DNA of 26,231 bases from a virus. Location: the IMG/VR virus record IMGVR_UViG_3300042731_005304; one strand, written 5' to 3'. The translations under genes were made by a program, and so were the position numbers. Below the pieces are notes generated by a model. The model ran no database searches. It saw nothing but the letters and a program-made list of their open reading frames with translations, and was not told the DNA's origin. Position 1 is the stretch's first letter. Every line of letters begins with the position of its first letter. This document shows, piece after piece, positions 9,303 through 9,437 of the stretch.

Positions 9303-9437
9303 AAGAGGCACAATCGGGCTGGCGTTCAGCTTGCTAAAGCTATCATACGTTCGGTGGAGTAGTATACATCCAGCCACCTAGTCCCTAGCAGAGAATCGAC
9401 CTCACCAGACCAGTCCGTAGTCGTTCAAGTGTGCCTC
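9303..9437 (-). ncRNA. Structured ~135-nt element E2. It lies immediately 3' of the tRNA-Gln/tRNA-Met pair and has the same architecture as E1
   Basis: The 9-nt termini are perfectly complementary (agaggcaca ... tgtgcctct). Internal stems include ggctgg/ccagcc, ggtgg/ccacc and cgac/gtcg. There is no ORF. It sits between tRNA-Met (19 nt away) and the clpP-like start. Confidence 0.35.

What the first reader, a model, noticed from the sequence alone, without database searches (positions are those of the whole stretch)
9303..9437. Second closed-end ~135-nt structured element after a tRNA pair (E2)
It shares its architecture with E1: a 9-bp perfect terminal helix (agaggcaca/tgtgcctct) around internal stems (ggctgg/ccagcc, ggtgg/ccacc, cgac/gtcg) and no ORF. 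It lies between tRNA-Met and the clpP-like start. This recurs as [tRNA, tRNA, ~135-nt closed element] at two loci. The recurrence suggests a family of tRNA-cluster-associated RNAs, such as processing punctuation, stable small RNAs or tRNA-mimic decoys. It does not look like a chance hairpin. The primary sequences of E1 and E2 are not obviously similar; only a short acgactac-like stretch is shared.
Basis: seen in the sequence. Interest (0 to 1): 0.55.

Follow-up and report, generated by a model that had tools for sequence, protein, structure and literature searches.

The report
Orphan closed-end RNA module beside phage tRNAs
A 135-base, GC-rich, non-coding stretch whose two ends pair with each other sits as a discrete unit between a phage tRNA pair and the clpP gene; it is real and probably an accessory small RNA made along with the tRNAs, but it has no detectable relatives and its function is unknown.

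Summary
The element is real. Its true coordinates are 9304-9438, one base off the finding, and it lies on the minus strand, as do all but possibly one gene in the window. A perfect 9-bp helix joins its ends (P = 0.96; 18 of 3000 shuffles of the gap match it). Its GC content is 53%, like the tRNAs (55%), against 41% for the window and 20% for its flanks. It has no ORF.

The most informative result is about its boundaries. With E2 removed, the tRNA-to-clpP spacer aligns end to end with the spacer of the closest relative. E2 is therefore a discrete insertion or deletion bounded exactly by its helix.

E1 and E2 do not align, and a covariance model of E2 finds only itself. Rfam, GenBank phages, IMG/VR and about 1.1 Mb of related contigs gave no homologue.

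Sequence-unrelated closed modules do occupy tRNA or tmRNA spacers in other phages of this clade.

Best reading (0.4): an accessory small-RNA cassette matured by tRNA processing. This is the same kind of thing as the T4 species 1 and 2 RNAs, but it is not homologous to them. The rivals are a MITE/ERIC-like palindromic insertion and a cis-acting spacer.

The parts
9304..9438 (-). E2: a 135-nt closed-end, GC-rich (52.6%), ORF-free module.
   Evidence: It is a discrete indel relative to L143, with boundaries at the ends of its helix.
9430..9438 (-). 5' strand of the terminal helix P1 (AGAGGCACA).
   Evidence: Pair probability is 0.96.
9304..9312 (-). 3' strand of the terminal helix P1 (UGUGCCUCU), followed by UUCUUUAAUUU.
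9439..9457 (-). 19-nt AT-rich left flank (AUAAUGCAUAGUUUAAUUC) after tRNA-Met. It contains the direct-repeat copy UUUAAUU at 9440-9446 and ends in UUC.
   Evidence: It aligns with the start of the L143 tRNA-Pro-to-clpP spacer.
9279..9303 (-). 25-nt right flank, which begins with UUC. It carries the direct-repeat copy UUUAAUU at 9294-9300 and the Shine-Dalgarno sequence AAAGGUGA at 9283-9290.
   Evidence: It aligns with the end of the L143 spacer. predicts a weak hairpin pairing UUCUUUA with UGGAGAA at the start codon.
9457..9532 (-). tRNA-Met (CAU), with no encoded CCA.
9535..9606 (-). tRNA-Gln (UUG), 2 nt upstream of tRNA-Met.
8658..9278 (-). clpP-like ORF (206 aa) downstream of E2.
22..159 (-). 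E1: a 138-nt closed-end module with an 11-bp perfect helix and 55.1% GC. It starts 3 nt after the tRNA-Glu discriminator base and ends 5 nt before the next tRNA.
236..293 (-). 58-nt spacer between tRNA-Ile and tRNA-Glu. It folds as a closed 9-bp hairpin with 55% GC and z = -4.5.
160..367 (-). tRNA-Ile (294-367) and tRNA-Glu (160-235), which precede E1.

Best explanation
E2 is a discrete accessory RNA cassette carried inside a phage tRNA operon.

Shown:
- It is a 135-nt, ORF-free, tRNA-like-GC module on the gene strand.
- A perfect 9-bp helix closes it.
- It sits in an otherwise conserved, 20%-GC tRNA-to-clpP spacer.
- It is present in this phage and absent at the same site in its nearest relatives. 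tRNA genes in that same slot also differ between these phages.

Inferred:
- It is transcribed by read-through with tRNA-Gln and tRNA-Met.
- 3' processing of tRNA-Met (RNase Z or RNase E type, since the tRNAs lack an encoded CCA) frees its 5' side.
- For its sibling E1, RNase P cleavage of the next tRNA, 5 nt downstream, frees the 3' side.
- The terminal helix buries both ends and protects the released RNA of about 135-145 nt from exonucleases, so it accumulates as a small stable RNA.

This is the same kind of entity as the T4 species 1 and 2 RNAs (rnaC, rnaD), which are 139 and 119 nt, lie in the T4 tRNA cluster and still have no known function. What the released RNA does in trans is not known. 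A protein-binding or decoy role is a guess.
For: - The terminal helix is significant and robust.
- GC content is 52.6% for E2, 55.1% for E1 and 55.1% on average for the tRNAs. The window is 40.9% and other intergenic gaps are 33-43%. Only 1% of 135-nt windows reach 53% GC, and all of them lie at tRNAs, E1 or E2.
- The module has precise boundaries. With E2 removed, the flanks (44 nt) align end to end with the 40-nt L143 spacer at 32 identities, scoring 49 against a null of 23.4 +/- 3.5 (0 of 500 shuffles reach it).
- The genome is tightly packed elsewhere: tRNA-tRNA spacers are 2-3 nt and tRNA-ORF spacers 1-34 nt. A retained 135-138-nt non-coding block is therefore either functional or recent.
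- E1 fits a tRNA-sized slot exactly between two tRNAs.
- E1 and E2 are almost the same size, with interiors of 116 and 117 nt.
- Sequence-unrelated closed modules sit in tRNA spacers of a related 124-kb contig. In L004, 4752-4912 has a 17-bp helix containing G.U pairs that work only on the sense strand, and 5008-5155 has a 15-bp helix with four G.U pairs. The only L003/L004 difference inside the first of these keeps its pair, changing U.G to U-A.
- A closed module also sits in the tmRNA leader of L029 and L139, with a compensatory change in an inner hairpin.
- There is a T4 precedent: the annotation of NC_000866 and the statement 'RNAs of yet unknown functions' in PMC9697503 and PMC12685909.
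Against: - No homologue of E2 was found anywhere, so there is no covariation evidence and no evidence of expression.
- The interior is not more stable than shuffled sequence.
- E1 and E2 share no alignable sequence or structure.
- E2 is dispensable in relatives.
- Both E1 and E2 fold slightly better on the non-gene strand, so thermodynamics does not settle the strand.
- Unlike E1, E2 is followed by an mRNA rather than a tRNA, so nothing obvious defines its 3' end.
Confidence: 0.4

Rival explanations
1. E2 is a selfish or neutral palindromic insertion of the MITE, ERIC or Correia type, or like an rRNA intervening sequence. On this view it is a short non-autonomous element with terminal inverted repeats that landed in an AT-rich transcribed spacer. 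It is tolerated because it folds back on itself, and it has no dedicated function.
For: - It shows presence/absence polymorphism with boundaries exactly at the inverted repeat.
- It has a perfect 9-bp terminal inverted repeat made only of Watson-Crick pairs.
- TTC directly abuts both ends, and a 7-nt direct repeat TTTAATT flanks it at 9440-9446 and 9294-9300.
- Its size of 135 bp is typical of such elements (my own knowledge).
- Its interior is not detectably structured.
- Similar modules are optional in related phages.
Against: - No second copy was found in the 26-kb window or in 1.1 Mb of related loci.
- E1 has different termini and no flanking repeat.
- A search of IMG/VR for the E2 termini returned 7 hits, none related to E2: their alignment scores fall within the null range and none has a tRNA nearby. 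A search for the E1 termini returned none.
- A 3-bp flanking repeat is weak evidence.
- A GC content equal to that of the tRNAs is not explained by this reading.
- A deletion by slippage across the hairpin base would leave the same pattern.
Confidence: 0.22
2. E2 is a cis-acting spacer. A self-closing fold would insulate tRNA folding and processing from neighbouring sequence. After excision of tRNA-Met it would leave a structured 5' end that shields the clpP mRNA from 5'-end-dependent decay by RNase E or RNase J.
For: - The terminal helix is the only feature shared by all the modules, including the 58-nt hairpin between tRNA-Ile and tRNA-Glu.
- E2 ends 25 nt before the clpP ATG without covering the Shine-Dalgarno sequence.
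- A GC-rich compact fold would lack the AU-rich single strands that RNase E prefers (my own knowledge).
Against: - The other four tRNA-to-ORF junctions in the window have 1-34-nt unstructured spacers, and three tRNA-tRNA junctions have 2-3 nt. The phage therefore does not need such modules.
- 19 unpaired nt precede the helix.
- About 70 clpP relatives lack any such leader.
- A simple hairpin would be enough for this role, so a 117-nt interior is unexplained.
Confidence: 0.15
3. E2 is a new catalytic or tRNA-directed RNA. Examples would be a self-cleaving ribozyme that trims the tRNA trailer, as theta ribozymes do, or a decoy for tRNA-targeting host nucleases.
For: - Structured RNAs immediately next to phage tRNAs can be ribozymes that process the tRNA 3' end (theta ribozymes, PMC10879173).
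- This phage clade invests heavily in tRNA biology. The window carries a Thg1-like gene, an ArfB-like gene and a tmRNA. Relatives carry RNA ligase 1 and a polynucleotide kinase-phosphatase next to clpP.
Against: - No Rfam ribozyme, Y RNA or tRNA model matches, even at E up to 10.
- The 5' end pairs with the extreme 3' end, which is not the HDV-like topology.
- No anticodon-stem-like hairpin or T-arm is present.
- There is no conservation from which to define a catalytic core.
Confidence: 0.07
4. E2 is a leaky terminator or attenuator. The terminal helix plus the U-rich tract that follows it (UUUCUUUAAUUU) would stop part of the transcription before clpP.
For: A 9-bp helix with 5 G-C pairs is directly followed by a U-rich run.
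Against: - The 'loop' is 117 nt, and the terminator scan does not call it.
- The window's clear terminators are compact hairpins followed by U runs.
- E1 has the same architecture but lies directly in front of a tRNA.
- No promoter-like site was found between E2 and the clpP start that could re-initiate transcription of clpP.
Confidence: 0.04
5. E2 is a chance palindrome in an ordinary spacer.
For: A 9-bp inverted repeat within 220 nt is expected about 20 times in 26 kb (my own estimate; one search lists 54 pairs when imperfect ones are included). The interior is not more stable than shuffles.
Against: - The helix spans the gap exactly (p about 0.006).
- E1 does the same (p about 0.0003).
- There is a sharp GC step from 20% to 53% at the helix ends.
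- The indel boundaries coincide with the helix.
Confidence: 0.03

Closest known systems
Bacteriophage T4 species 1 and species 2 RNAs (rnaC, 139 nt; rnaD, 119 nt)
   Same: - They are non-tRNA small RNAs encoded inside a phage tRNA cluster, on the same strand as the tRNAs.
- Their size class is the same.
- They are directly adjacent to a tRNA.
- Their function is still unknown (PMC9697503 and PMC12685909).
   Different: - There is no sequence or covariance-model similarity.
- rnaC carries a canonical T-arm (CCGGGUUCGAAUCCCGG) and only a weak pairing of its ends. E2 and E1 have no T-arm but a long perfect terminal helix.
- The T4 RNAs are conserved among T-even phages. E2 is an orphan that is absent from its nearest relatives.
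Bacterial MITE-like transcribed palindromic repeats (ERIC/IRU, Neisseria Correia elements) and rRNA intervening sequences
   Same: - They are about 100-160-bp optional insertions with paired ends.
- They lie in transcribed non-coding regions.
- They show precise presence/absence polymorphism.
- They fold as long hairpins in the RNA.

The properties of these families are from my own knowledge.
   Different: - Those families are multi-copy with conserved sequence and termini. E2 has no second copy and no relative with the same termini.
- The E2 helix (9 bp, then a mismatch, then 3 bp) is short for RNase III, the enzyme that excises rRNA intervening sequences.
Theta (minimal HDV-like) ribozymes next to phage tRNAs
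   Same: They are structured non-coding RNAs placed immediately 3' of phage tRNA genes and linked to tRNA 3'-end maturation (PMC10879173).
   Different: - No Rfam hit to any HDV-like model was found.
- E2 pairs its first 9 nt with its last 9 nt. It does not form the nested P1/P2 double pseudoknot.
- E2 is twice as long and starts 19 nt after the tRNA.
Y RNA / YrlA and vault RNA (closed-end small RNAs bound by TROVE-domain proteins)
   Same: They are closed-end RNAs of about 100-140 nt. A major-vault-protein-like ORF lies just upstream of the tRNA-Ile, tRNA-Glu and E1 unit. E2 contains a CUGGUC/GACUAG pairing that resembles the Ro-binding helix, though this resemblance comes from memory only.
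   Different: - There is no YrlA, Y_RNA or Vault match in Rfam.
- No Pfam domain of that kind (TROVE) was found among the 28 larger ORFs scanned.
- The resemblance is internal to E2, not in the terminal stem.

Membership tests
T4 species 1/2 RNAs (rnaC/rnaD) | Encoded within a phage tRNA gene cluster, on the same strand, adjacent to tRNAs | tested here: met
   E2 lies 19 nt after tRNA-Met on the minus strand. E1 lies between two tRNAs. The T4 layout is shown.
T4 species 1/2 RNAs (rnaC/rnaD) | Sequence or structure homology to rnaC or rnaD | tested here: not met
   nhmmer and blastn of E1 and E2 against L061 (the T4 region) gave no hit to rnaC or rnaD. The E2 covariance model did not hit L061.
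T4 species 1/2 RNAs (rnaC/rnaD) | tRNA-like T-arm at the 3' end (rnaC) | tested here: not met
   rnaC has CCGGGUUCGAAUCCCGG. E2 has only a degenerate GAGGUCGAUUCUC in its 5' third. There is no partial Rfam tRNA hit.
T4 species 1/2 RNAs (rnaC/rnaD) | Accumulates as a discrete stable RNA during infection | not testable with these tools
   This needs a Northern blot or RNA-seq.
MITE / ERIC-like palindromic element | Terminal inverted repeats | tested here: met
   A 9-bp perfect inverted repeat lies at the exact ends.
MITE / ERIC-like palindromic element | Empty orthologous site with precise boundaries | tested here: met
   The flanks without E2 align end to end with the L143 spacer. L142 also lacks the element.
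MITE / ERIC-like palindromic element | Target-site duplication | tested here: inconclusive
   TTC abuts both ends, and TTTAATT is repeated but offset by 1 and 3 nt. E1 has no flanking repeat.
MITE / ERIC-like palindromic element | Multiple copies sharing sequence or termini | tested here: not met
   No copy was found in the window, in 1.13 Mb of related loci or in IMG/VR. The rest of this phage's genome was not available.
HDV-like theta ribozyme | Match to HDV-like covariance models, or the nested double-pseudoknot topology | tested here: not met
   Rfam gave no hit at E up to 10. The 5' end pairs with the extreme 3' end.
Y RNA / YrlA | Match to the covariance model, and a Ro/Rsr gene nearby | tested here: not met
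   The only YrlA hit is a chance one (E = 5.9) over the tRNAs themselves. No TROVE domain was found among the 28 ORFs of the window scanned against Pfam.
Intrinsic terminator | Compact G+C-rich hairpin (loop of 3-8 nt) followed by a U tract | tested here: not met
   The scan does not call it. The loop is 117 nt.
clpP cis-regulatory leader / riboswitch | Conserved upstream of homologous genes | tested here: not met
   About 70 distinct clpP relatives have short, AT-rich upstream regions. The few long ones look like small ORFs.
tRNA (including intron-containing) | Cloverleaf detectable by ARAGORN or Infernal | tested here: not met
   ARAGORN, run with introns of 0-200 nt and a lowered threshold, finds nothing in E1 or E2. 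Rfam finds nothing either.

The most novel reading that the evidence does not exclude
E1, E2, the L004 modules and the tmRNA-leader module of L029 and L139 may be examples of an unrecognised class. These would be cassette-like, closed-end accessory RNA genes that populate the stable-RNA operons of large uncultured phages. They would use the tRNA-processing machinery for their own maturation, and act in trans on tRNA biology. Possible roles include decoys for host tRNA-targeting defence nucleases, or partners of the clade's RNA-repair enzymes (the Thg1-like protein, RNA ligase 1 and polynucleotide kinase-phosphatase).
Probability: 0.1. Interest if true: 0.7.

Novelty: new variant of a known kind. 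Interest (0 to 1): 0.36.

Why it matters
Phage tRNA clusters have been known for about 50 years to hide non-tRNA small RNAs, the T4 species 1 and 2 RNAs, whose function is still unknown.

If E1 and E2 and the analogous modules in related contigs are expressed, several things follow:
- Riding on tRNA operons would be a general way for phages to make accessory RNAs.
- Such RNAs would be gained and lost as discrete cassettes, like the tRNAs themselves.
- The closed-end form would be a second architecture beside the T-arm-bearing T4 type.

If E2 is instead a palindromic insertion, it would be a rare case of a MITE-like element caught in a phage tRNA operon, with a clean empty site in a relative.

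Either way the practical value is modest until homologues or expression data exist.

Tried and rejected
- **Known RNA families:** Rfam was run at gathering thresholds on the whole window, and at E up to 10 on 9200-9620 and up to 5 on 1-700. Only tRNAs, the tmRNA and chance hits were found.
- **tRNA with an intron, or a tRNA remnant:** rejected.
- **E1/E2 alignment and a joint covariance model:** the two sequences do not align. I built a single-sequence model of E2 instead, and it found only itself.
- **Sequence searches, all negative for E1 and E2:**
  - nhmmer and blastn against all fetched loci
  - blastn against GenBank phages, which gave tRNA hits only
  - an exact 20-mer of E2 and terminal-helix patterns in IMG/VR
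  - a 28-mer of E1 in GTDB genomes
- **Looking for the source contig by exact protein:** not on record.
- **Synteny:** clpP relatives were taken from IMG/VR, JGI metagenomes and the 5.8-billion protein set. A major-vault-protein relative was also examined, as were huge-phage records. No E2 or E1 orthologue was found.
- **Shared words:** ACGACUAC (E1 and E2), AGGAUACG (E1, L004) and UUGUUAG (two L004 modules) occur at about chance frequency once the number of comparisons is counted.
- **Base pairing of E1 or E2 with the window's tRNAs or tmRNA:** no outlier was seen. duplexfold is uninformative at these lengths.
- **Promoter or terminator inside or at E2:** none was called.
- **More members of the tmRNA-leader module:** its 23-mer matched only its own contig.
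- **Neighbouring ORFs of unknown function:** no Pfam or PHROG clue to an RNA partner.

Full report
**Setting**

All convincing genes in the window lie on the minus strand. They include 10 tRNAs and a 264-nt tmRNA. The protein genes include:
- a Clp protease
- an isochorismatase-family protein
- a DHH phosphoesterase
- two thymidylate-synthase-like proteins
- a ribonucleotide reductase
- an HNH endonuclease
- an ArfB-like RF-1 domain protein
- a Thg1-like protein
- a DNA ligase
- an 893-aa major-vault-protein-like protein

No cultured phage is close: the ribonucleotide reductase is at most 35% identical to any. The vault-like protein matches only three huge uncultured-phage records of 462-735 kb. 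The window is therefore probably from a large uncultured phage. The best clpP relatives anywhere are 72-75% identical.

**The observation**

On the gene strand the order is tRNA-Gln (9606..9535), a 2-nt spacer, tRNA-Met (9532..9457), a 19-nt AT-rich spacer, E2 (9438..9304), 25 nt carrying the Shine-Dalgarno sequence, and then the clpP ATG at 9278.

- The ends of E2, AGAGGCACA and UGUGCCUCU, form a perfect 9-bp helix, so the finding's coordinates are one base off.
- In dinucleotide shuffles of the 178-nt gap, a closing helix this long spanning at least 100 nt appears in 18 of 3000 trials. For E1 (22-159, 11 bp) the figure is 1 of 3000.
- The helix has a pair probability of 0.96, with or without flanking sequence.
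- E2 has no ORF.
- Its GC content is 52.6%. E1 has 55.1%, the 58-nt spacer hairpin 55.2% and the tRNAs 55.1% on average. The window has 40.9% and other intergenic gaps 33-43%.
- Only 1% of 135-nt windows reach 53% GC, and all of them lie at tRNAs, E1 or E2.

**What does not hold up**

- Without the terminal helix, the E2 interior folds no better than shuffles, with z = +0.33. The E1 interior gives z = -0.68. The opposite strand is marginally better, at -0.96 and -1.50.
- E1 and E2 do not align.
- The shared ACGACUAC is unique to the two elements within the window. However, one shared 8-mer between two 135-mers is about what chance gives, and it sits on opposite strands of the respective hairpins.
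- A covariance model of E2 finds only E2 in the window and 47 related loci, the T4 tRNA region among them.

**E2 is a discrete module**

The two closest relatives, L142 and L143, have a tRNA-Pro 30-40 nt upstream of clpP and no element.

I joined the 19-nt left flank and the 25-nt right flank of E2. The result aligns end to end with the 40-nt L143 spacer at 32 identities. The score is 49 against a null of 23.4 +/- 3.5, and 0 of 500 shuffles reach it.

E2 is therefore an insertion or deletion whose boundaries coincide with its terminal helix. It sits in a spacer of 20% GC.
- TTC directly abuts both ends.
- TTTAATT occurs on both sides, at 9440-9446 and 9294-9300.
- The tRNA in front of that conserved spacer also differs: Gln plus Met here, Pro in the relatives. 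The flanking protein genes upstream are unrelated.
- This slot therefore exchanges GC-rich stable-RNA units as cassettes.
- None of about 70 distinct clpP relatives has a GC-rich closed element upstream.

**Recurrence of the architecture**

In the window:
- E1 fills the space between tRNA-Glu and the next tRNA, starting 3 nt after the discriminator base and ending 5 nt before the next tRNA.
- The 58-nt spacer between tRNA-Ile and tRNA-Glu is a closed 9-bp hairpin with z = -4.5.

In a 124-kb contig of the same clade (L004/L076, clpP 56% identical):
- The order is tRNA-Asn, a 161-nt module with a 17-bp closing helix, tRNA-Ala, a 148-nt module with a 15-bp helix, a hairpin of about 70 nt, and then tRNA-Pro.
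- These helices contain G.U pairs that work only on the gene strand.
- The one substitution between two samples that falls inside the first module turns U.G into U-A.

In L029 and L139:
- A 114-nt closed module sits in the tmRNA leader.
- It carries a compensatory change in an inner hairpin (GUUUCC/GGAAAC against GCUCC/GGAGC).
- It is absent from five relatives, where the promoter abuts the tmRNA.

None of these modules resembles another in sequence, and none matches Rfam.

**Interpretation**

The module is not needed for tRNA processing or for protecting a downstream mRNA. Other junctions in the same window manage with 1-3 nt, or with 11-34 unstructured nt.

In such a tightly packed genome, a retained GC-rich non-coding block of 135-138 nt is one of two things. 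It is either a gene-like unit or a recent insertion.

I favour an accessory small-RNA cassette (0.4). It would be co-transcribed with the tRNAs, freed by their processing enzymes and stabilised by its terminal helix. That is the same kind of entity as the T4 species 1 and 2 RNAs, whose function remains unknown. It is not a member of that family. There is no homology, and E2 lacks the T-arm that rnaC carries.

The main rival (0.22) is a MITE/ERIC-like palindromic insertion. The clean empty site and the flanking repeats support it. The absence of any second copy or of shared termini in IMG/VR weakens it.

The other readings are less likely, for these reasons:
- A cis-acting spacer is weakened by the short, unstructured junctions elsewhere in the window.
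- A terminator is weakened by the 117-nt loop and by E1 lying directly in front of a tRNA.
- A theta-like ribozyme, a Y RNA or a tRNA mimic is weakened by the absence of any Rfam match and by the wrong topology.
- A chance palindrome is weakened by the helix statistics, the GC step and the indel boundaries.

**Limits**

- There is no homologue of E2, so no covariation test was possible.
- There are no expression data.
- The rest of this phage's genome was not available.
- Folding energies do not decide the strand.

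Noticed in passing
window 694-3375 (-): An 893-aa ORF carries major-vault-protein shoulder, vault-repeat and SPFH/Band-7 domains. Its only matches in GenBank phages are three huge uncultured-phage records, LR756500, LR756501 and LR756503, at 45-49% identity. Relatives L142 and L144 also carry it, near clpP.
   Followed up: partly
window 22-159 (-): E1 is the sibling closed-end module, with an 11-bp perfect helix and 55% GC. It is wedged between tRNA-Glu and a tRNA that runs off the window start. It folds better on the non-gene strand (z = -4.4) than on the gene strand (z = -3.2).
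   Followed up: yes
window 236-293 (-): The 58-nt spacer between tRNA-Ile and tRNA-Glu is itself a closed 9-bp GC-rich hairpin (z = -4.5). All other tRNA-tRNA spacers in the window are 2-3 nt.
   Followed up: partly
window 368-693 (-): The region downstream of the vault-like gene is strongly structured (z = -5.3). It holds a possible 35-aa ORF with a good Shine-Dalgarno sequence (about 637..530), a clear intrinsic terminator (499..466) and a promoter-like site (421..393) in front of the tRNA-Ile, tRNA-Glu and E1 unit.
   Followed up: partly
window 19080-19343 (-): A short (264-nt) phage tmRNA has the tag GEEQFLMAA. The same genome encodes ClpP and an ArfB-like RF-1 domain protein (11183-11518), which is flanked by two tRNA-Thr genes with 1-nt spacers.
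   Followed up: no
window 23283-24059 (-) and 21576-22127 (-): A Thg1-like 3'-5' nucleotidyltransferase and a small Pol-beta-type nucleotidyltransferase are present. None of the tRNAs whose 3' ends I read (tRNA-Met, tRNA-Glu) encodes CCA.
   Followed up: no
window 3615-4433 and 4442-5335 (-): Two adjacent ORFs are weakly thymidylate-synthase-like (Pfam 30-33 bits). This may point to pyrimidine hypermodification enzymes rather than ThyA.
   Followed up: no
L004 4752-4912, 5008-5155 and 5166-5245 (= L076 11752-12245): Three closed-end modules of 161, 148 and about 75 nt fill the spacers between tRNA-Asn, tRNA-Ala and tRNA-Pro in a 124-kb contig of the same clade. The two large ones have closing helices of 17 and 15 bp with sense-strand G.U pairs. 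One natural substitution preserves a pair.
   Followed up: partly
L029 568-681 and L139 83-194: A 114-nt GC-rich closed-end module (ACUAUGAGA/UCUCAUAGU) lies in the tmRNA leader. It has a compensatory change in an inner hairpin. It is absent from five related loci, where a TTGACA/TATACT promoter abuts the tmRNA. It has no Rfam match.
   Followed up: partly
L142 1377-1455: The closest relative carries a tRNA with the anticodon CUA, which ARAGORN calls 'Pyl'. It is an amber suppressor, which hints at stop-codon recoding in this phage group.
   Followed up: no
L145 5778-8706: In another clpP relative, T4-type RNA ligase 1, RlaP and a polynucleotide kinase-phosphatase lie just upstream of clpP. 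This is a tRNA-repair set.
   Followed up: no
L148 5700-5870: A GC-rich, ARAGORN-negative stretch has two T-arm-like hairpins (CAGUUCGAAUCUG and GGGGUUCGAAUCCCC) inside a closing helix. It may be an aberrant or composite tRNA-like RNA.
   Followed up: no
L143 3283-3344: A truncated tRNA 5' half (GGCCCCGUAGCGUAGUGG...) follows tRNA-Ile. The inter-tRNA spacers of L142 and L143 encode small hydrophobic ORFs instead of closed RNA modules.
   Followed up: no
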